Below are positions 17,411 to 31,691 of a stretch of DNA of 64,000 nucleotides, piece by piece (the stretch's first letter is position 1; every line of letters starts with the position of its first letter). Under the pieces are notes generated by a model, which was not told the origin of the DNA, did not search any database, and was given only the letters and a program-made list of their open reading frames with translations. Both the position numbers and the translations under genes were made by a program. Source of the stretch: an uncultured Chloroflexia bacterium (GTDB lineage: Bacteria; Chloroflexota; Anaerolineae; Anaerolineales; RBG-16-64-43); NCBI GenBank assembly GCA_963780865.1, contig CAWADT010000022.1, positions 79,499-143,498 of the forward strand. Direction: 5' to 3'.

Positions 17411-18727
17411 TTGAAGATGGATTCACGCGGTCGATCATATAATGGGAGAATGCTTTCCTGGCGGAAACACCTTCCTTACGATCCCCTACCGTTGCTTCTT
17501 GAATCCGGATGCGCGCCGGTTGCCTATTTCGCGCGGTGCGACTTGCTGGGCGACAACCCCGGCCCGGTGGAACGGCTGTGGGATCTGCCCGACGCGCAAA
17601 AGATCCTGCGCCATCAGATGAAAAACGGCGGGTGGAGATATCCTTCGCCCGCAAACACGGCGCGCAGCGCGGAGGATTACGACCAGATCGAGACCTACCG
17701 CAATCTGGGTTTTCTCGTTGAAAAGTTTGGATTCACCCGCGCGCACCCCGCCGTTCAAAAAGCGGCCGAGTTCCTGTTCTCCTCGCAAACTTCTTCCGGC
17801 GATTTCCGCGGTATCTATGGCACCCAGTATTCGCCGAATTACTCGGCGGGAATCATGGAGCTGTTGATCAAGGCGGGGTTTGAACGCGACGCGCGATTAA
17901 CGCGCGGGTTGCGCTGGCTGCTTTCGATGCGGCAGGCCGACGGCGGCTGGGCCATCCCCCTCCGCACCCGCGCGACCAGCGGGAAATGGACCGACGTGAT
18001 GCGCGCAAAAACGATCGAGCCGGACCACGCCAAGCCCTTCTCCCATATGGTTACCGGTGTCGTCCTGCGGGCCTTCGCCGCGACGGATCATTATTCCGAC
18101 AACGAGGACGTTCGCAAAGCCGGCGAATTGCTGGCTTCGCGTTTGTTCAGATCGGACGCTTATATCGACCGCAAAGCGCCGAGTTTTTGGGTGGGTTTTT
18201 CCTTCCCGTTCTGGTTCACGGATTTGCTTTCGGCGCTTGATACCCTTTCACGGTTGGGCTTTCCGGCGGAGGATCCAAACATCCGCCGGGGATTGGATTG
18301 GATTGCTCAGCGGCAGCGCAAGGACGGCGGTTGGACCCTCAAGCTGCTCAAGGGCGCGGATAAAGCCTTGCCGTATTGGCTGGACCTGGCGGTCTGCAGG
18401 ATATTTAAACAATTCGCAACTACTCGGAGATATAAAAGGGGATTGAAAAAATGTACGCGGATTTCACGGAAAAGCGCGGATTGCACGGAGGGACCAAAAT
18501 ATCGAAGGATTTTTTCAAAGGATGTTCCGCGAAATCCGCAGAGTCCGCGTAATCCGCGTACTAGTTATTCCAAGCTGAGAACTTACAAGGATTCTATTTA
18601 TCCTAACCCCTCCTCCTCAAACCCCTCCTCCTTTCCTTTCGGAAAGGGAGGGAGGGGCAGGGGAGACGGGGTTAGGTCCCCATCCTCACGACTATTCGAT
18701 GCAACACCAGGTGGCGGTCCAGGATGA
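17411..18727 (+). CDS. Prenyltransferase/squalene-oxidase-repeat (terpenoid cyclase-like alpha/alpha toroid) protein; C-terminal ~100 codons read through repeat elements
   Basis: Three DGGW-type repeats are present: QMKNGGWRY, RQADGGWAI and RQRKDGGWTL. After ...YWLDLAVCRIFKQF the frame continues without a stop through repeats 18453-18561 and 18602-18676. Confidence 0.7.
   Translation: MKMDSRGRSYNGRMLSWRKHLPYDPLPLLLESGCAPVAYFARCDLLGDNPGPVERLWDLPDAQKILRHQMKNGGWRYPSPANTARSAEDYDQIETYRNLGFLVEKFGFTRAHPAVQKAAEFLFSSQTSSGDFRGIYGTQYSPNYSAGIMELLIKAGFERDARLTRGLRWLLSMRQADGGWAIPLRTRATSGKWTDVMRAKTIEPDHAKPFSHMVTGVVLRAFAATDHYSDNEDVRKAGELLASRLFRSDAYIDRKAPSFWVGFSFPFWFTDLLSALDTLSRLGFPAEDPNIRRGLDWIAQRQRKDGGWTLKLLKGADKALPYWLDLAVCRIFKQFATTRRYKRGLKKCTRISRKSADCTEGPKYRRIFSKDVPRNPQSPRNPRTSYSKLRTYKDSIYPNPSSSNPSSFPFGKGGRGRGDGVRSPSSRLFDATPGGGPG
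18453..18561. repeat. 109-bp palindromic element with perfect 11-bp termini GTACGCGGATT / AATCCGCGTAC
   Basis: Built from cacgga/ccgcg word repeats and related in style to 35165-35273. It lies inside the 3' tail of ORF 17411..18727. Confidence 0.7.
18602..18676. repeat. C/G-arm palindromic repeat (family C): cctaacccctcctcc...cccctcctcctttcc-tttc-ggaaagggagggagggg...ggggttagg
   Basis: An imperfect long hairpin of the same C-rich-arm / G-rich-arm style as 54928-54974 and the palindrome interrupted by the IS at 28091-28166 / 29781-29810. Confidence 0.65.
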
Positions 18728-24700: not shown

Positions 24701-27700
24701 GGTGCGGAAGCAGCGCCGCGTCGGCCATCCCGCGGAGCAGATCGTGCGCCAGCATGGAGGGCGAGAGTTTCGCCGCTTCCTGCCGGCTGGTGATCGCGTT
24801 AAGCATCCGGCTCAGCGGATGAAAAAAAATCGCCGCGCCCATGACGAGCGTCGCCGCCCAGCCCGCCGCCGGCGACGCGGCCCAGGCGGCCGCCAGCAGA
24901 AGCACGCCCGTCATCGGCACCAGGCTCCGGCGCAAATTATCGAAAATCTTCCAGCGGCTTATCGCCGAGAGCGTGTTGGACCCCCGCCGCCCGCCCGCCA
25001 GGGGCACGCGGGGCAGCAGCCAGTCGATGATCTGCCAGTCGCCGCGAATCCAGCGGTGCTGCCGCCGGCTCGAATCAAAATAGGTCCGGGGGAATTCGTC
25101 GAATAACTCGATATCGCTGGCCAGGCCGGTGCGGACGTGCTCTCCCTCGATCAGGTCGTGGCTGAGCAGCCGTTCCTCCGGGAAGCGGCCGGAGAGGATC
25201 CGGCTGAAGGCGCGCAGGTCGTAAATCCCTTTGCCGTTATAAGAGCCTTGCCCGGTGAGATCCTGGTACACGTCGGAGACCGCTTTCGTGTATGGATCGA
25301 TCCCGATCGGGTCGGAGAACAGCCGGCTGAACGGCGATGCCAGCATGCTGGGCAGCGAAGGGCTGACGCGCGGTTGGAGGATAGTATAGGTGCCGGCCAG
25401 GATATGGCCTTGTTCATCAAACCGGGGACGGTTGAGCGGATGCGCGAGCGTCCCGATCATCCGCCGCGCGGTTCCAGGCGGAAGCTGGGTATCGCTGTCG
25501 AGCGTGATGATGAAGCGGATGCCCTCGAGCCGGTCCGCATTTCCCGCCCGCAGCAGTTGCGGGGCGTCTTTGGGCCGGGTATTTTCCAGGAATTGATGCA
25601 GCTCCTCGAGTTTTCCGCGCTTCCGTTCGCGCCCGATGTAGCATCCTTCGGACGGACTCCATTGCCGCTCGCGATGAAATAGGAAGAAACGATCTTCCTC
25701 GTAGCGGCGGTTCAAAGCTTGCAGCGCTGTCACCGCTTGCCCCAGGAGTGGCCCATCCGATTCCCGGTGCGGGGTATCCGAATCGTCGAAATCCGAAAAG
25801 AGCGAGAAGAAAATATTCGGATCCTTGTTTCCCAGGAAGCGGATTTCCAGTTTTTCCGCTTCGACGCGGATGGTCGCGGCATCCGTCAGAAGGATCGGCA
25901 CTACCACCAGCGTGCGGAATTCGGCGGGAACACCCGAGGGGTCAAAATCCATTTTCGGGAGCGCCCGGGGGGGAAGGAAGCGCGTGAAAAAATAATTCAG
26001 AACCTGAACGGCCACCTGGCTGGCAGGCACGACGAACAGCAGGGAGAGAATCACCCGCAGCGCGGGAGACGGTTGCCTCAGGCAGAGGAGGACGATCGGC
26101 GCATACACCAGCGTGAAGGCTACGCCAAGGCCCGCGAAGAAGATTGTGCTATGGCGCGACGCCACCCAGCGGCGGTAGAAACATCGGATCTTGCGGTGGC
26201 ATCCGAGCCGGCGCGAAAGGTTGGCCCGGCCGTCGCCCACCAGATAATATCCCACGTGGCAGAGCCGGTCGTCCGCGGGCGCGCCGGCTTCCGCGGCGGC
26301 GGCGCACAGCTCGAGCACCCGTTCCGCCACGGTCAGTTCCGGCAGCCGCGATTCCCGCGACGCCTCTTCGACGGCCCCGCGGTATTTATCGCGGGTGTCG
26401 AAATCCATTTGCGGGTAAATGTCCGCCGGATCGTTGCCCAAAAGGCGGTCGACGCTGCTGGCCTCCTCGAAGATCTTTCTCCAATCCATCAGGGCGAGCT
26501 GGCGGAGGCTTGTGAACGCGTTCCCGACGGAAATCTGATCCTGGGTTTGGCGGTTTTGTTCGCGGAGAGTCAGATTCGCTCAGCGGTTGCGGCAAAACGC
26601 GTTCGAGCCAGTTCTGGACCAGCGCCAGCGCGTTGGCTTCGTCGTATAGGTAGCTGATCAACTGGGAACAAAAATATTCGCTGGGGGCGGGAAGGTTCTC
26701 GGTCAGCTTCGCCAGGATCGAGAACAGCTGGCCGGGAGCCCGCCGGTCGGCCGAGATCAGCCGGTTGGCCCAGAAACCCGCCGTCTCCCGCTCCCGCAAT
26801 TCGTTCAGCGTTCTATCGGCCAGGTATTGGATGTGTTCGATCAAGGCGATGCGCAGCATCTGAGGCAGAGCCCATAACTCGCCGATGGCGAGCGGCTGGA
26901 CGGACTGATAGGCTTCGAGGAAGGAGTGCAGATTTTCCCGGTCGAGCCGCAAATCGACGTGGGCGACGAGCTCTTTGGCCAGCGCGTAGATGCGCGGCAG
27001 GTTCAGGTACGGATTACGATCCAGCAGCGGGAGTTGACGGAAATACCGCCGGGGAAGATTGGCCCGGATGTCACGGGCGTTGCTCTCGATGATGTATTCG
27101 TTGTCGAGGATCCATTCCGCCGAGGCGGTGGTCGGCTGTTCCAGGCGGCCGGCGTCCGCCAGATCGAGGCAAATTCGATGGAGGGAGTCCGCGGCCTTCT
27201 CGACCCGGCGCAGCAATTGTTCGCCGCGAGCCGGTTTTTCCAGCAGTCGATGCTCCTGGGCGAGCTTGCGGGCAAATTGCTGAAGCTGAGCTTGCGGCAG
27301 CAGCGCGGTGGCTCCCGGATCTTCAGCGAGCTCGGCTTTCCGGGGAGGGAAGAGCAGAAAGATCGTAGGCTGGGTTTCCCCGCTTTCCCGGATGATGATC
27401 TGCGGATTGCGGAAGGTATGCAGCGGCGCCTGGAGCAGCAGAACGCTCTCGCCGGCCAGCAGCCACTGAGCGTGCTCGGCCAATACCCGGCGGTCGATGC
27501 CGTATCGGGACCGCCGGAAACCTATCCCTCCGAAAACCGCTCCCAAACCGGCGCCCGCCAGAATGGGAATCCAGAGCGGGTAGGAGAGACCGGGATTCGC
27601 CGCCGATCGGGAGAGCAGCGAATAGAGCAGACCGGCCGCTGCGGAGAGGAGGCCGGCCAACAGGACGATCAGGAGCAGGCGCAGCCGGGCAAAAGTGTCC

Positions 27701-27918
27701 CTCACCCGCACGGATCCATCAGAGAGGCGGTGCAAGACGGCCGCGCGTGAAAGGCCATTCTTCTCCAATTCCCAAACGGCTTTCTCCGCATTTCGGTCGT
27801 TTAAAAAGTAAGCCGCCAGAAGGCTGAATCCGCCTTTTTGTTTTTCCGCGACGATGCGCGGCATGGTTTTCAATACCGACTCGGGTTTCATGGCGCTGCC
27901 CTTCACTGTCCGGTCCAC
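18672..27918 (-). pseudogene. Cyclic beta-1,2-glucan synthase-like giant gene (N-terminal membrane region + GT84-like + GH94-like), split into 7 ORFs by six 1-nt frame shifts
   Basis: The same-strand ORFs 26386..27918, 23649..26489, 23393..23923, 21379..23619, 19416..21944, 18761..19525 and 18672..18944 read as one ~3,050-codon protein. This requires single-nt corrections near 26575-26586, 23894-23904, 23640-23655, 21945-21955, 19526-19535 and 18820-18822. Motifs are AEWILDNEYII; SVGNAFTSLRQLALMDWRKIFEE, which is recovered across junction 1; TLDSDTQLP and RWIRGDWQ; and the GH94-like RENGGQYTHAALW and GRGGWSWYTGSAGWMY. Confidence 0.85.
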
Positions 27919-27992
27919 AGTATATCCTGCCGGATCAGGAGGTCAAAACCGCCGGAATGATTTATCCGGCATTCGCGAGATGAAGTGTTCCC

Positions 27993-28021
27993 GGCAGCTT
28001 GCCCCGCACTCCTCTTTATTA
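27993..28021. repeat. Left half of palindrome family A (ggcagcttgccccgcactc + loop ctctttatta), split by a 2,006-bp insertion
   Basis: Compare the intact copy at 43989-44043. The right half is at 30028-30053, and TTA is present at both junctions (28019-21 and 30028-30). Confidence 0.8.
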
Positions 28022-28166
28022 GGTTTCAAAACCACTGCCTCTGGCAGTGAGTGGAATGAAAAGGTTCTACCGATGGAGTAGGCATCATGACCCATCCCAT
28101 CTCTCCTCCCCCGGCCCGAGCACGGCTCGGGCCGTCCCCCTCCTCCCTTCCCGTATTACGGGAAGG
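28022..28166. repeat. Left part of a ~390-bp nested element: terminal hairpin B (28033-28049, CACTGCC-tct-GGCAGTG) and left arm plus apex of palindrome C (28091-28166)
   Basis: The left arm of palindrome C is cccatcccatctctcct...tccccctcctcccttcccgta. It carries an extra 23-nt hairpin, CGGCCCGAG-cacgg-CTCGGGCCG, at 28112-28134. The apex is t, followed by tacgggaaGG. Confidence 0.75.
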
Positions 28167-28174
28167 ACATACTC

Positions 28175-28180
28175 TGTCAA
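28175..28180 (-). promoter_or_regulatory. Outward-facing -35 hexamer TTGACA, 8 nt from the IS right end (transposase orientation)
   Basis: The minus strand reads ...catcTTGACAgagtatgt| and then the element ends. It pairs with TAGAAT at 29773-29768 only after circularisation. Confidence 0.6.
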
Positions 28181-28305
28181 GATGCAGAAATTGAAAAAGG
28201 AGCGATTCTCTCTCGGAAACAAAACTGGGATTTTGTCCGATGGGCCAGGAACACAACGGTGCTTGTCCAAAACGCCGCTCTCGTTCCGAAATGGGTTGGA
28301 AAGGA

Positions 28306-29523
28306 TCAGGATATCGGGATTTTATCCGCCCGGTCTTTCAAGTGCCGGTTTTCGTCATAAAGTGTTTGTGTTTGCCAAAGCCTCCAGAGGACTGACAACC
28401 AGCGGTTGGCTAGGCAACGGTAGGCCTGCGCATCGCTCGAACAGCGCAATCGCACCTGTTGGAAGTACATTTGCGCCCAAGGCGATTCCGGCAGGGAGGC
28501 ACGCGCCCATTGTTGCGCGATGGTGCGGAACTCATGATCGCAGGAACGGCGGAATTTGACGTACCTCCGTTTCCCGCTCGCATCGGTCACCGGACATGTT
28601 CCCGCCAGCATCTGCAGCGAAGAGGGAGAAGGAAACCGGGAAAGATCTTCCCCCACCTTCGCCAGAAGTGCCGGAGCCAGATAGGCACCGGCCCCCGGCA
28701 GACTGGAAAATACCGGCGCCAAGGAGTGCTGTTCGAACAAGGGCTTGAGATCTTTCAGCGCCTGATATTTAGCGCGGACCAAAGCCAAGGTTGTCTCGGA
28801 GGTATGGACAATGACATTCCGAAACGCCTCCGCCGTATCCGAATCAGCATGGATCGCATTTTCCTGCAATCGGGCGAAACGCGAAGCCAACTTCCGGGGA
28901 GCGGGATACCGGTGCTGGCGGGCGAATTGAAGAAAGGCTTCCCATGTCAGCTGGGAGGCTTCTTGCGGGGTGGGAAAAAGTCTCAGGAAATGCAGGGAAA
29001 TCTGGGCATCCAGGTTGCAAAACAGTGTGGCGGCAGACGGGAAACAACGCAAGAGCACATCCCGCAGGCGGTTGGTTTGCCGAACGATATCGCGGGTGAG
29101 ATTGCCGATATGCCTTACCTGGATCTGCACCCGGCGGAGGGTTGAGCTTCCCGGAGACCAGGGCTGCAGGCGTTGCCGTTTGGTGCGCACCAGATCGGCT
29201 ATGATTTCCGCATCCCCTGGATCGGACTTGGCCCCGCTGCTAGTGCGCGTCTTTCGTTCGGCTTTGACCCGGTTGGGTGGGGCCACCCAAATGTGGGTGA
29301 AACCATTCGCCCAAAGGAAATCAATCAGAAGGGTGTACGAGCACTCGATGGCAAGGAAACAATCCTCCGGATCGGCTCCCAATCCGCGGGTTCGTTCCAC
29401 CAGGAGAGCGAAACCCGCTGCGGAATGGGGGATTTGGAATTTTGCCAGCAGGCTTCCTTCCTGGTTCTGGAAGCAAATATCATGTTTGGATCGGCTCCAG
29501 TCGATTCCTATGTACAATTGCAT
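28306..29523 (-). CDS. IS110-family (DEDD / RuvC-like + Tnp_20-like) transposase/recombinase
   Basis: 405 aa from ATG 29523, which is preceded by AAGGAGG. The sequence starts MQLYIGIDWSRSKHDICF. It continues with ...GAKSDPGDAEIIADL... and ...FSSLPGAGAYLAPALLAKVGEDLSRFPSPSSLQMLAGTCPVTDASGKR. It then shows ...SCDHEFRTIAQQWA... and ...YRCLANRWLSVLW. Confidence 0.92.
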   Translation of the reverse strand: MQLYIGIDWSRSKHDICFQNQEGSLLAKFQIPHSAAGFALLVERTRGLGADPEDCFLAIECSYTLLIDFLWANGFTHIWVAPPNRVKAERKTRTSSGAKSDPGDAEIIADLVRTKRQRLQPWSPGSSTLRRVQIQVRHIGNLTRDIVRQTNRLRDVLLRCFPSAATLFCNLDAQISLHFLRLFPTPQEASQLTWEAFLQFARQHRYPAPRKLASRFARLQENAIHADSDTAEAFRNVIVHTSETTLALVRAKYQALKDLKPLFEQHSLAPVFSSLPGAGAYLAPALLAKVGEDLSRFPSPSSLQMLAGTCPVTDASGKRRYVKFRRSCDHEFRTIAQQWARASLPESPWAQMYFQQVRLRCSSDAQAYRCLANRWLSVLWRLWQTQTLYDENRHLKDRADKIPIS

Positions 29524-29569
29524 GAGGGCCTCCTTATGGCGGAACGAGAGGTCCACCAGCACGGCCGAT

Positions 29570-29761
29570 CGGCTGTATCCCTGTTATGGCGCTAGTCGCG
29601 CAACATACTGTCGTCAGTCCCAATTCGGCGAACTTGGGAGACGGTCCTTCCCGGGCGCTCAAAGCGCAGAGGGGGGGTGGTCTTTTTCCCCAAGTCTGTG
29701 ACCGGTGGGTATGGCTTGGCTACGGACAAGCACGCACGCAGCCATATACCACCGGTCGCCT
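29570..29761 (-). ncRNA. Candidate bridge (guide) RNA in the IS110 left end: 5' stem-loop, target-binding loop, donor-binding loop
   Basis: On the minus strand there is a 5' stem ACCGGTGGTATATGGC...GCCATACCCACCGGT. Two internal loops follow, each built around a GCGC-N5-GCGC hairpin. Loop 1 strands are CCCCCTC (29675-29669) and CGGGAAGG (29653-29646). Loop 2 strands are AGTATGT (29609-29603) and TAACAGG (29586-29580). See the findings for the matches to the ends and the target. The extent of the RNA is approximate. Confidence 0.6.
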
Positions 29762-29767
29762 TTTTTT

Positions 29768-29773
29768 ATTCTA
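29768..29773 (-). promoter_or_regulatory. -10 hexamer TAGAAT, 7 nt inside the IS left end
   Basis: The minus strand reads |tgttagtTAGAATaaaaaaaggcgacc. It would direct transcription into the structured left-end RNA and the transposase gene. Confidence 0.55.
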
Positions 29774-29780
29774 ACTAACA

Positions 29781-30027
29781 GGGAGGAGGGGATAGGAGAG
29801 GTGGGATGGGAATGGGAAGAAGTATAGATAACGGGAAGTTGAGAAGAAAAAGTTTGACCAGTATTGAAGGAGGATGGAGCGGAGCAAATGGCACCGAATC
29901 ACATATATAAAAAAAGAGGAAAAGGGGATCTTGCGGGCGCGTAATGCGGTTGTTCGAAAAGGATCGGCAGGAGCACACCTTCCAGGTGCAGCAATCCAAA
30001 GCCACCGTCTCTGGCAGTGGTTATTTA
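29781..30027. repeat. Right part of the ~390-bp nested element: right arm of palindrome C (29781-29810) and terminal hairpin B' (30002-30020)
   Basis: The right arm is GGgaggagggga t aggagaggtgggatggg. The element ends ...ccaccgtctctggcagtggttattta. Confidence 0.75.
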
Positions 30028-30053
30028 TTACTCGAAGAGTGCGGGGCTCGACG
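30028..30053. repeat. Right half of split palindrome A (ttactcgaa + gagtgcggggctcgacg)
   Basis: Pairs with 27993-28021. It is followed at ~30068-30105 by the ataccgcgcggtcattca motif, which also follows the intact A copy at 44068-44100. Confidence 0.8.
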
Positions 30054-30353
30054 TACCTGTTCAGGGGGGTGGCGCTCCGCGATACCGCGCGGTCATTCAG
30101 CGCGGTTCCATCTATAGAGAGGTGTCTATGGCCAATCGCTTTCGAAGTTCCGCCCCGGCATGATCCGCAGCATAAAAAAAATCGAGGTTTTCAGAATCTC
30201 GTTTTTTATTTAGAGGGACAATTCAAGGAGAACGCGGATTCGATGGTTGCGTAGAGAGGGCTTCCCCCCTCGGAGCGCGAATCGATCAAGGGTGGAAAGG
30301 AACGTATTTTTCGCGGTCCGGAAAATTACTCGCCGACGAAATATTTTGATATT

Positions 30354-31691
30354 TCAGGAATTGCTCAGCGGCATAGTCAGGATGAACCGCGCGCCGCCTT
30401 CAGTACGGTTTTCCGCCCGCAGCGTGCCGCCGTGCGCTTCGGCCAGTTTGCGCGCGATCGCCAGCCCCAAGCCGGTTCCGCCGTCGGAACGCGACCGTGC
30501 GGAATCCACCCGGTGGAAACGTTCGAAGATGAGATCCAACTGATCGTCTGGGATCCCCGGTCCGGAGTCTTCCACCGTCAGAAGGACGTCGTGGGCCTCG
30601 GGCTTCAGCCCAAGACGGATCGTTCCGCCGCCGGGAGTGTGGCGCAGGGCGTTGTCCAGCAGATTGCCGAGGATTTGTTCCAGGCGCTGCGGATCGGCCT
30701 GCACCGGGGAGGGAGCCGCAGAGGGCGCGAGCTCGATCCGCTGCGATTGGGATTCGGCGCGCGGCGCAAAGCGGGCGGCCACCCGGCTCAGAATCTTGGA
30801 AAGGTCGACCTCGGATTTCTCCAGGGTCAATTGGCCGGCGTCTGCGAGTTCCAGCGTGCGCAGATCCTCCACCAGCCGGTCCAGGAGTTCCGCGCTTTCG
30901 CGGATCGGCGCGAGATTTTCCCGCGTGAGCGGATACACCCCGTCGGCCAGCGCGTCGAGGTTGGCATGCACCACCGAAAGCGGTGTGCGCAATTCGTGCG
31001 CGATGTCGGCCGTCATTTCCTTGCGAAGTTTCTCCTGCCGCTCGATTTCCGTCATCATCCCGCGGAAGGATCGGGTCAGGTCGCCGACTTCGTCGCCGGA
31101 AGGGTGCGGGAGCTGCAGATTTCGTTCGCCGTGCGCAAATCGCTGCATCGCGCCGGTGAGTTGGCGCAGCGGGGAGGTGAGGCTCTGGCTCAGGAGGAGC
31201 GCAATGGCTAGGCCGACGGCCCCGGCCGTGATCGCCGCCAGCACCATCGCCCGGTTCACCGCCACCAGCAGGAGCTCTTCCGGGCCGGGCGGAGGCGCTT
31301 CGTGCGTGACCAACTGCCCGATCGTCTGATCCCCTTCCCGGATGGGGATGGCCACGTCCCCCGGAGAAGCCGCAAATGGTTTTCCGGTCATTCCGCCGGC
31401 GGTGTCGGCCACGATCATTCCCTTTTCATCCACGAGCAGCCAGTGGGTGTTGCGCATGGCCGCCATCGGCCCGGGAGAGGAGAGGACGCTGCCGACGCCG
31501 TCCCAGGAATGATGCCCGTTGTAATACGCGCCCAGTTCGCGGGCCAGCAAGGCGTTTGGCATCATGCCGATCTGAGAGAGCGTGCCGCGCATCTCACGCC
31601 CCGCCGTGCGGCCGGTGAAAAACACCACTGCCGCCAGGGTCGTGAGCAGCAGCACTCCGAAGGCGATCAGAACTTTCGTGGCGAGACGCAC
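30354..31691 (-). CDS. Sensor histidine kinase (two TM helices, extracytoplasmic domain, HAMP, HisKA, HATPase_c)
   Basis: 445 aa. The H-box is ADIAHELRTPLS, the N-box LLDNALRHT, the G1 VEDSGPGIP and the G2 GGTGLGLAIA. Confidence 0.92.
   Translation of the reverse strand: MRLATKVLIAFGVLLLTTLAAVVFFTGRTAGREMRGTLSQIGMMPNALLARELGAYYNGHHSWDGVGSVLSSPGPMAAMRNTHWLLVDEKGMIVADTAGGMTGKPFAASPGDVAIPIREGDQTIGQLVTHEAPPPGPEELLLVAVNRAMVLAAITAGAVGLAIALLLSQSLTSPLRQLTGAMQRFAHGERNLQLPHPSGDEVGDLTRSFRGMMTEIERQEKLRKEMTADIAHELRTPLSVVHANLDALADGVYPLTRENLAPIRESAELLDRLVEDLRTLELADAGQLTLEKSEVDLSKILSRVAARFAPRAESQSQRIELAPSAAPSPVQADPQRLEQILGNLLDNALRHTPGGGTIRLGLKPEAHDVLLTVEDSGPGIPDDQLDLIFERFHRVDSARSRSDGGTGLGLAIARKLAEAHGGTLRAENRTEGGARFILTMPLSNS

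What the first reader, a model, noticed from the sequence alone, without database searches (positions are those of the whole stretch)
28165..29782. IS110-family element whose left-end RNA carries two internal loops matching its own termini and its insertion site (bridge-RNA architecture)
The element ends were fixed independently of any RNA model. Deleting 28167-29782 restores a palindrome arm, leaving a GG dinucleotide on both sides.

In transposase orientation the junctions are:
- target: cctcctc-CC-ttcccg
- element: CC-tgttag ... agtatgt-CC

The 257-nt region upstream of the transposase folds (minus strand) into a 5' stem-loop followed by two internal loops. Each loop is organised around a GCGC-N5-GCGC hairpin.

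Loop 2 (donor side):
- The 5' strand AGTATGT (29609-29603) is identical to the last 7 nt of the element.
- The 3' strand TAACAGG (29586-29580) is the exact complement of the core CC plus the first 5 nt of the element.

Loop 1 (target side):
- The 3' strand CGGGAAGG (29653-29646) is the exact complement of CC plus the 6 nt of right-hand target flank.
- The 5' strand CCCCCTC (29675-29669) matches the 7 nt of left-hand target flank (cctcctc) at 6 of 7 positions.

The arrangement is: 5' strands identical to the top strand, 3' strands complementary to it and covering the core, target loop before donor loop. This is what has been reported for IS110/IS621 bridge RNAs. Finding all four guides at equivalent positions in twin loops is very unlikely by chance.
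Basis: partly seen in the sequence, partly recalled or inferred. Interest (0 to 1): 0.9.

Follow-up and report, generated by a model that had tools for sequence, protein, structure and literature searches.

The report
IS110 insertion sequence with bridge RNA
This is an intact IS110-type mobile element whose upstream non-coding RNA carries two loops that read its own joined ends and its insertion site, which is the already published "bridge RNA" mechanism, so it is a well-documented new example rather than a new kind of system.

Summary
A 1,616-bp element (28167-29782, minus strand) sits inside one arm of a perfect 17-bp-arm palindrome, with CC at both junctions. It encodes a 405-aa DEDD/Ser IS110 recombinase.

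Three are far beyond chance: RTG 8/8, RDG 7/8, and LDG 7 nt. The fourth, LTG, matches 6/7 in C/T-only sequence and is not significant alone.

Relatives settle the interpretation:
- Homologous elements in other contexts start and stop at the same bases.
- Across 17 elements the four loop strands track their own flanks and ends (permutation p<=5e-5 for three strands, 3.5e-4 for RDG).
- The consensus fold places all four strands in two internal loops. It is 94% paired, and 14 of 27 pairs show compensatory changes.
- Joining RE to LE creates TTGACA-17-TAGAAT. The integrated copy has no such promoter.

This is the IS621-type bridge-RNA system of Durrant et al. 2024, so it is a new member of a known kind.

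Details not described in the papers I read:
- Both loops are capped by GCGC-N5-GCGC hairpins.
- The LTG register shifts by +/-1 between relatives.
- A covarying 10-15-bp complementarity brackets the transposase ORF.

The parts
28167..29782 (-). Whole IS110-group element plus one copy of the CC core (1,616 bp). The second core copy is at 28165-28166.
   Evidence: Junctions were read. Similarity to relatives starts at CC|TGTTAG and stops at AGTATGT|CC.
28306..29523 (-). Recombinase gene, 405 aa, preceded by the SD AAGGAGG at 29535-29529.
   Evidence: Pfam DEDD_Tnp_IS110 at 1.7e-30 and Transposase_20 at 9.9e-13. D8, E60, D101, D104 and S316 are invariant in 20 homologues. A profile of these hits IS621 8wt6 at E=2.5e-15 and ISCro4 9t56.
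29565..29761 (-). Predicted bridge RNA of about 197 nt, from the inferred start after the -10 box to the 3' side of the donor-loop stem.
   Evidence: Consensus structure. Covariance model hit at 137.6 bits, E=1.4e-30, the only one in the window. The RNA ends are inferred, not measured.
29700..29757 (-). 5' stem-loop of the bridge RNA.
   Evidence: Folds.
29631..29696 (-). Target-binding loop. Outer stem GACTTGGG/CCCAAGTT, inner stem AGAC/GTCT, LTG strand 29679-29668, cap hairpin 29667-29655, RTG strand 29654-29643.
   Evidence: RTG CGGGAAGG is the reverse complement of CC+TTCCCG, 8/8. The LTG matches 6/7, or 6/9 in the commonest family register.
29565..29628 (-). Donor-binding loop. Stems CCGA/TCGG and CTG/CAG, LDG strand 29614-29602, cap hairpin 29601-29589, RDG strand 29588-29576.
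   Evidence: LDG AGTATGT equals the last 7 nt of the element. RDG TAACAGG is the reverse complement of CC+TGTTA.
29768..29773 (-). -10 box TAGAAT in the LE, one half of the circle-junction promoter.
   Evidence: TTGACA-17 nt-TAGAAT appears only when RE is joined to LE. No sigma-70-like site was found in the integrated copy.
28175..28180 (-). -35 box TTGACA in the RE, the other half of the circle-junction promoter.
   Evidence: TTGACA is present at this position in all 17 relatives, and a full promoter match forms in 16 of them.
28137..28166 (.). Target palindrome, promoter-distal part. On the + strand it reads CCCCTCCTCCCTTCCCG-TATTA-CGGGAAGG. The remaining 9 bases of the split arm are at 29783-29791.
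29783..29791 (.). Remainder of the palindrome arm split by the insertion (GAGGAGGGG on the + strand).
29540..29550 (-). LE arm CTCTCGTTCCG of an ORF-bracketing complementarity, 17-27 nt upstream of the ATG.
28278..28288 (-). RE arm CGGAACGAGAG of the same complementarity, 18-28 nt after the stop codon.

Best explanation
This is an intact IS110-group insertion sequence that works, or worked, by the bridge-RNA mechanism. The proposed cycle has three steps.

1. The element excises as a circle. Joining the right end to the left end across the CC core builds a sigma-70 promoter: TTGACA in the RE, a 17-nt spacer, and TAGAAT in the LE.
2. That promoter transcribes the left end into a bridge RNA of about 200 nt, and probably also drives the recombinase mRNA.
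3. The RNA binds the DEDD/Ser recombinase and presents two internal loops.

The donor loop reads the circle junction. Its LDG equals AGTATGT, the last bases of the element. Its RDG is complementary to CC+TGTTA.

The target loop reads a REP-like palindrome arm. Its RTG is complementary to CC+TTCCCG. Its LTG resembles the C/T-rich left flank.

Recombination across the 2-nt CC core inserts the element, leaving CC at both junctions.

Shown here: the anatomy, the boundaries, the structural covariation, the guide/flank covariation, and the junction promoter in silico. Inferred by homology with IS621: transcription, RNA-protein binding, and catalysis.
For: - **Protein.** Both IS110 domains are present. 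D8/E60/D101/D104 and S316 are invariant and align with IS621's catalytic D11 and S241. The profile E-value to 8wt6 is 2.5e-15.
- **Boundaries.** L002, L003, L006, L018, L020, L021 and L022-26 (68-88% aa identity, various contexts) share CC|TGTTAG...AGTATGT|CC. Multi-copy sets define the ends of three more distant relatives.
- **Guide covariation, cognate vs non-cognate.** LTG 7.53 vs 4.54 of 9; RTG 6.82 vs 3.62 of 8; LDG 7.76 vs 6.24 of 9; RDG 7.29 vs 6.40 of 8. Permutation p<=5e-5 for LTG, RTG and LDG, and 3.5e-4 for RDG.
- **Modularity.** L006 and L022 share RTG AAAAGCGG and right flank CC|GCTTTC. Their LTGs, GAGCTTACCCT and GTTTTTATCCC, follow their different left flanks, CAGCTTGCC and ATTTATC. 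L021 has LTG ATGACCTTTCT with flank ATGACCTTTC, and RTG TTTTTGGGG with flank CC|CCAAAAA.
- **Structure.** The 27-pair consensus is 94.3% paired and 14 pairs have changes on both sides. 0/500 shuffles reach the observed value on four of the five measures. Slid controls give 22-44% paired.
- **Promoter.** A junction promoter forms in 16/17 relatives only in the circular form.
- **Chance.** Three exact matches anywhere in the LE occur in about 5e-6 of shuffles.
- **Literature.** The published model has the same strand logic, core coverage, circle-reconstituted promoter, long LE and short RE (PMC11208160).
Against: - Durrant et al. report 0-2 mismatches in most natural cases.
- The LDG has U opposite the first core C. 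This is a possible rU-dG wobble with the bottom strand.
- Only one copy is present in the window, and one contig in the database carries this exact protein. Recent activity is therefore not shown.
- The single-sequence MFE does not give the open-loop fold.
- No Rfam family matches.
- There are no expression or biochemical data.
Confidence: 0.9

Rival explanations
1. The loop/end/flank matches are coincidence or low-complexity artefacts, and the leader is simply a structured 5' UTR of the transposase mRNA.
For: The LTG match alone is expected 0.43 times by chance. The target is C/T-only. The MFE fold pairs parts of the guides.
Against: Three exact 7-8-nt matches have a joint frequency of about 5e-6. 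The same four positions track different ends and flanks in 17 elements. The stems framing the loops covary while the loop strands vary freely.
Confidence: 0.02
2. The repeated segments act as DNA, not RNA. They would be sub-terminal direct and inverted repeats in the LE that serve as recombinase-binding or synapsis sites mimicking the ends.
For: AGTATGT in the LE is a direct repeat of the right terminus, and TAACAGG is an inverted repeat of the left terminus. The sequence alone cannot tell RNA from DNA. IS1111-group relatives do have sub-terminal inverted repeats (PMC11208160).
Against: DNA-level end mimicry does not explain why the first loop tracks the target flanks, which are host sequence. 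It also does not explain the compensatory base-pair changes in stems on one strand, or the promoter placed to transcribe exactly this region. In the related IS621 the RNA is necessary and sufficient in vitro (PMC11208160).
Confidence: 0.04
3. The architecture is a real bridge-RNA element, but this copy is an inactive or off-target relic. It would have inserted at a near-cognate palindrome, or its LTG drifted afterwards, and it no longer moves.
For: There are 2-3 LTG mismatches to its own left flank. It is a single copy in the window and database.
Against: The ORF is intact with all catalytic residues. The RNA stems are intact. The -35 and -10 halves are perfect or near-perfect. Multi-copy relatives tolerate 0-2 LT mismatches at natural sites, for example the P0118 copies.
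Confidence: 0.25

Closest known systems
IS621 (E. coli) bridge recombinase and bridge RNA (Durrant et al. 2024, PMC11208160; Hiraizumi et al. 2024, PDB 8wt6)
   Same: - DEDD RuvC-like domain plus Ser-containing Tnp domain.
- The LE-encoded RNA has a 5' stem-loop, then a target loop, then a donor loop.
- The 5' strands equal the top strand. The 3' strands are complementary and cover the 2-nt core.
- The promoter is rebuilt across the RE-LE circle junction.
- Insertion is into palindromic repeats.
- Long LE and short RE.
   Different: - The proteins are related only at profile level: E=2.5e-15, with no phmmer hit.
- The core is CC rather than CT.
- The RTG is 7-8 nt, against 4 nt in wild-type IS621.
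- Both loops are capped by a GCGC-N5-GCGC hairpin.
- The LTG register relative to the cap varies by +/-1 among relatives.
- The likely host is Anaerolineales (Chloroflexota), inferred from relatives.
ISPpu10 / ISPpu9 (Pseudomonas putida IS110-family elements)
   Same: They insert into REP-type hairpins. ISPpu10 is reported to need a target DNA stem-loop as well as RNA complementarity (bioRxiv 10.64898/2026.03.19.712850). ISPpu9 regulates tnp through the structure of its 5' UTR (PMC8450116).
   Different: ISPpu10 is reported to lack the 5' stem-loop, which this element has. In ISPpu9 the downstream RNA Ssr9 is complementary to an antisense RNA. Here the sequence after the stop codon is directly complementary to the leader.
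IS1111-group elements (for example IS4321/IS5075; seekRNA/bridge RNA in the RE)
   Same: Same recombinase family and same RNA-guided principle.
   Different: IS1111 elements carry the RNA in a long RE and have 7-17-bp sub-terminal inverted repeats. Here the RNA is in the long LE.

Membership tests
IS110 family, IS110 group (bridge-RNA recombinase elements) | Recombinase with an N-terminal DEDD RuvC-like domain and a C-terminal Tnp domain carrying a catalytic Ser. | tested here: met
   Pfam PF01548 at 1.7e-30 and PF02371 at 9.9e-13. D8/E60/D101/D104/S316 are invariant. They align with IS621 D11 and S241.
IS110 family, IS110 group (bridge-RNA recombinase elements) | No terminal inverted repeats, and a 2-nt core present at both junctions. 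| tested here: met
   CC is at 29781-82 and 28165-66. The ends TGTTAG... and ...AGTATGT are not inverted repeats. Relatives have the same ends.
IS110 family, IS110 group (bridge-RNA recombinase elements) | Long non-coding LE and shorter RE, with the RNA encoded in the LE. | tested here: met
   LE is 257 nt and RE is 139 nt. The RNA model hit lies in the LE.
IS110 family, IS110 group (bridge-RNA recombinase elements) | [quoted passage not shown] | tested here: met
   The consensus of 17 sequences is 94.3% paired and 14/27 pairs have compensatory changes. Shuffled and slid controls are far lower. The 5' stem-loop appears in single-sequence folds.
IS110 family, IS110 group (bridge-RNA recombinase elements) | The first loop matches the target (LTG equals the top strand, RTG is complementary) and the second loop matches the donor (LDG, RDG), each reaching the core. 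| tested here: met
   In the window: RTG 8/8, RDG 7/8, LDG 7 nt plus a wobble at the core, and a weak LTG at 6/7.
IS110 family, IS110 group (bridge-RNA recombinase elements) | Loop strands covary with target flanks and element ends across orthologues. | tested here: met
   Permutation test on 17 elements and on 12 distinct-target representatives gives p<=5e-5 for LTG and RTG.
IS110 family, IS110 group (bridge-RNA recombinase elements) | Sigma-70 promoter reconstituted across the RE-LE junction of the excised circle. | tested here: met
   TTGACA-17-TAGAAT forms only in the joined form. This holds in 16/17 relatives. No such site exists in the integrated copy. In silico only.
IS110 family, IS110 group (bridge-RNA recombinase elements) | Match to a curated or published covariance model of bridge RNA. 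| tested here: inconclusive
   Rfam 15 gives no hit in 27500-30500. I could not establish whether Rfam holds a bridge-RNA family, and the published model is not available here.
IS110 family, IS110 group (bridge-RNA recombinase elements) | The RNA is expressed, binds the recombinase, and is required for recombination. | not testable with these tools
   This needs RNA-seq, binding and recombination assays.
IS1111 group | Bridge/seek RNA in a long RE, short LE, and 7-17-bp sub-terminal inverted repeats. | tested here: not met
   LE is longer than RE and the RNA is in the LE. No sub-terminal inverted repeat was seen within a few bases of the ends.

The most novel reading that the evidence does not exclude
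In this clade of IS110 elements the recombinase ORF is bracketed by a 10-15-bp complementarity. One arm lies in the leader just upstream of the SD, and the other lies in the first about 30 nt after the stop codon. In the window the arms are 29550-29540 and 28288-28278. The sequence changes between relatives while complementarity is kept.

If it acts as RNA, the full-length mRNA would fold back on its own ribosome-binding region. That would limit recombinase translation to a short co-transcriptional window, or separate bridge-RNA output from recombinase output. I did not find this control layer described in the bridge-RNA papers I read.

The twin GCGC-N5-GCGC loop caps and the sliding LTG register may likewise mark a structurally distinct bridge-RNA subclass.
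Probability: 0.3. Interest if true: 0.45.

Novelty: new member of a known kind. Interest (0 to 1): 0.27.

Why it matters
- It independently recovers the bridge-RNA logic in an Anaerolineales-type (Chloroflexota) clade that is far from IS621. The evidence is natural "reprogramming" examples in which only one guide and one flank change.
- It adds a compact, apparently intact orthologue with a CC core and a long (7-8 nt) RTG to the pool of candidate programmable recombinases.
- It shows that the family's circle-junction promoter and palindrome targeting extend to this lineage.
- It does not change the understanding of the mechanism. The ORF-bracketing complementarity is the only item that might.

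Tried and rejected
- **Rfam.** The scan of 27500-30500 at E<=10 gave only noise.
- **PDB by single sequence.** phmmer of the protein against PDB found nothing. Only a 20-sequence profile reached IS621 and ISCro4.
- **Plasmid search.** A blastn search of the plasmid collection gave one 62-bp hit in a Mycobacterium IS110 gene, which is uninformative.
- **Other copies.** A search for a second copy, or another bridge RNA, in the window found none.
- **Other cognate targets.** A search for intact target palindromes in the window found none that matched. There is a related but non-matching nested palindrome at about 18607-18678.
- **Core assignment.** I considered that the core might be CT, because CC|T is ambiguous at palindrome targets and several LTGs fit best one base further 3'. 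I rejected this as a general rule. L006, L022, L021, L027, L037 and L047 have right junctions CC|G, CC|C or CC|A.
- **Strand test of the ORF-bracketing helix.** Comparing G-U with A-C extensions was inconclusive, with six elements favouring each.
- **Protein name.** The cluster look-up returned no accession or organism.
Full report
**1. What is in the sequence**

Read on the minus strand, the region contains a 405-aa ORF (28306-29523). It is preceded by AAGGAGG and a 257-nt non-coding left end, and followed by a 139-nt right end.

- Left: ...CCTCCTC-CC-TGTTAG.
- Right: AGTATGT-CC-TTCCCG...

Removing 28167-29782 rebuilds CCCCTCCTCCCTTCCCG-TAATA-CGGGAAGGGAGGAGGGG. This is a perfect hairpin with 17-bp arms, and it is itself nested in weaker outer inverted repeats.

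The protein has both IS110 Pfam domains. D8, E60, D101, D104 and S316 are invariant among 20 homologues. A profile of these homologues matches the solved IS621 and ISCro4 recombinases over both domains, at E=2.5e-15. In that alignment D8 falls on IS621 D11 and S316 on S241. The single sequence alone finds no PDB relative.

**2. The four segments**

Three are exact:
- LDG AGTATGT equals the last 7 nt of the element.
- RDG TAACAGG is the reverse complement of CC+TGTTA.
- RTG CGGGAAGG is the reverse complement of CC+TTCCCG.

Each is expected 0.007-0.014 times anywhere in the leader. All three together occurred in 1 of 200,000 shuffles, using the 7-nt GGGAAGG for the RTG.

The fourth is not significant on its own. 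CCCCCTC against CCTCCTC is a 6/7 match expected 0.43 times by chance in this C-rich leader.

**3. Boundaries tested in relatives**

The protein has 2,664 database homologues at E<1e-20. I fetched 51 loci. They include two copies in one Anaerolineales MAG (L002, L003).

In every close relative (68-88% identity), similarity to the window begins at CC|TGTTAG and ends at AGTATGT|CC, whatever the flanks. Ten, ten and six copies of three more distant elements fix their ends in the same way.

**4. Do the loops follow the ends and flanks?**

I tabulated junctions and loop strands for 17 elements and compared cognate with non-cognate pairings.

| Guide | Cognate | Non-cognate | Out of |
|---|---|---|---|
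| LTG | 7.53 | 4.54 | 9 |
| RTG | 6.82 | 3.62 | 8 |
| LDG | 7.76 | 6.24 | 9 |
| RDG | 7.29 | 6.40 | 8 |

Permutation p<=5e-5 for LTG, RTG and LDG, and 3.5e-4 for RDG. The LTG and RTG results also hold for 12 representatives with distinct targets.

The clearest cases are natural "reprogrammings" on a nearly constant RNA backbone:
- L006 and L022 keep RTG AAAAGCGG and right flank CC|GCTTTC. Their LTGs are GAGCTTACCCT and GTTTTTATCCC, and their left flanks are CAGCTTGCC and ATTTATC.
- L021 has LTG ATGACCTTTCT with flank ATGACCTTTC, and RTG TTTTTGGGG with flank CC|CCAAAAA.
- L007 against L008 changes the RE (GCGTGT to GCATGT) and the LE (TGTTAC to TATTAC). The LDG and RDG change with them.

The RTG register is fixed. 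The LTG register relative to the cap hairpin is -1, 0 or +1 in different elements. In the window, the register one base 3', the commonest among relatives, gives only 6/9. Natural copies of P0118 show 0-2 left-flank mismatches, so imperfect LT pairing is tolerated. The window copy is nevertheless at the poor end.

**5. Structure**

RNAalifold on 17 leaders gives two modules.

Target module:
- outer stem, 8 bp
- inner stem, 4 bp
- internal loop carrying the LTG and RTG strands on either side of a 4-bp cap hairpin

Donor module:
- two stems, 4 bp and 3 bp
- internal loop carrying the LDG and RDG strands on either side of a 4-bp cap hairpin

The controls support this fold:
- 94.3% of cells pair, against 84.4% in shuffles.
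- 14 of 27 pairs show changes on both sides, against 6.0 in shuffles.
- 0/500 shuffles reach the observed value on four of the five measures.
- Sliding the partners drops pairing to 22-44%.
- The first cap hairpin itself shows GCGC to GCAT/ATGC, GCGG/CCGC and GCAC/GTGC.

The single-sequence MFE differs from this fold. Its energy is -87.4 kcal/mol, against -62.7 for the consensus-derived fold. The large open loops are penalised, and the guides pair spuriously. This is expected for loops meant to pair with DNA. It does mean the architecture rests on comparative evidence.

A covariance model built from the two modules finds one hit in the window: 29563-29699, 137.6 bits. Rfam has no match.

**6. 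Expression logic**

The integrated copy has no sigma-70-like promoter in 28000-30000. Joining RE to LE across the core gives TTGACA (28180-28175), a 17-nt spacer, and TAGAAT (29773-29768). The same junction promoter forms in 16 of 17 relatives, while only one weak site appears in an integrated context. This is the circle-reconstituted promoter described for IS110 elements (PMC11208160).

**7. Comparison with the known system**

Durrant et al. describe the following:
- 5' loop strands pair with the bottom strand over 8-9 nt.
- 3' strands pair with the top strand over 4-7 nt.
- The core is included in all four pairings.
- The target loop comes before the donor loop.
- IS110-group elements have a long LE, a short RE and an RNA in the LE.
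- A bridge RNA is predicted in 85.7% of IS110-group elements.
- Targeting of REP palindromes is already known for the family.

Every feature that could be tested here is met (see the membership table). The IS1111 arrangement is not.

The differences are of degree:
- a CC core
- a 7-8-nt RTG
- twin GCGC-N5-GCGC caps
- a sliding LTG register
- only profile-level protein similarity to IS621

Hairpin targets are also reported to be a requirement for ISPpu10.

**8. Side observation followed part-way**

Eleven bases just upstream of the SD (CTCTCGTTCCG, 29550-29540) are the exact reverse complement of eleven bases 18-28 nt after the stop codon (28288-28278).

The same positions are complementary in relatives, but with different sequences:

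| Element | Leader arm | Post-stop arm |
|---|---|---|
| L007 | CTCCCGTCAG | CTGACGGGAG |
| L012 | CAGATCACTCCA | TGGAGTGATCTG |
| L015 | CCAGGGACAA | TTGTCCCTGG |
| L016 | 15 bp | 15 bp |
| L037 | CTCCGGTCAAGA | TCTTGACCGGAG |

Against shuffled partners, ten distinct elements give a combined p of about 2e-12. Cognate duplex energies beat non-cognate ones, -32.6 against -27.2 kcal/mol, with p<=5e-5.

A G-U against A-C test could not say whether it acts as sense RNA, antisense RNA or DNA. I found nothing equivalent in the papers read. ISPpu9 uses 5'-UTR structure and two sRNAs, which is a different arrangement.

**9. Verdict**

It is an additional, well-resolved member of a published class. Its interest is modest, apart from the ORF-bracketing complementarity and the sub-class details of the RNA.

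Noticed in passing
window 29550-29540 and 28288-28278 (minus strand); equivalent positions in L007, L008, L012, L014-L016, L027, L037, L047: A 10-15-bp complementarity brackets the recombinase ORF. One arm is the leader 17-27 nt before the ATG, and the other is 18-28 nt after the stop. The sequence differs between relatives but complementarity is kept (combined p about 2e-12). In the window clade the bases just after the stop (TCCTT) could also pair with the SD. The level of action (RNA or DNA) is unresolved.
   Followed up: partly
window about 28240-28205 (minus strand), in the RE: A conserved RE hairpin, TCGG-N-CAAAAC...GTTTTG-NN-CCGA. Its loop varies, and there is at least one compensatory change in L021 (CAGAAA/TTCCTG). 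Its function is unknown. It is not followed by a T-run.
   Followed up: no
window 28091-28166 + 29783-29810; also L002, L003, L004, L018, L020 flanks: The target is a nested palindromic repeat. The inner 15-17-bp arms are CCCTCYCCCTTCCCG, and the outer arms are of the type CCCATCCCATC.../...GATGGGATGG. The inner palindrome type is the insertion site of relatives in other Anaerolineales MAGs and metagenomes, and L002 and L003 also show the outer arms. L004 also holds an intact copy. It looks like a REP-like repeat family of this lineage.
   Followed up: partly
window 18607-18678: A second, uninterrupted nested palindrome of related composition (CCTAACCCC...CCCCTCCTCCTTTCC-TTTC-GGAAAGGGAGGGAGGGG...GGGGTTAGG). 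It does not match this element's RTG, so it is not a cognate empty site.
   Followed up: partly
L006:200-266 versus L022/L023 right flanks: The left flank of L006 contains an unoccupied copy of the site used by the L022-type element (…TTTTTCC-CGCTTTCGCGGGATGA…). Two sister elements with the same RTG but different LTGs therefore use positions about 35 bp apart in the same host repeat.
   Followed up: no
L008:330-363; L009, L010 and L017, 3' of the RTG: Some relatives carry extra small hairpins inserted into the target module. L008 has a 21-nt insert that splits the LTG strand. L009, L010 and L017 have an insert of about 30 nt between the RTG and the closing stem. It is unknown whether these RNAs still work.
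   Followed up: no
L021 junctions; L014 junctions: In L021 and L014 the LTG matches the left flank perfectly (10/10 and 9/9), but one base out of register with most relatives. For L021 the reconstructed target also has one more C than the two guides jointly predict. This could be slippage in a homopolymer, tolerance of a bulge, or an assembly error.
   Followed up: no
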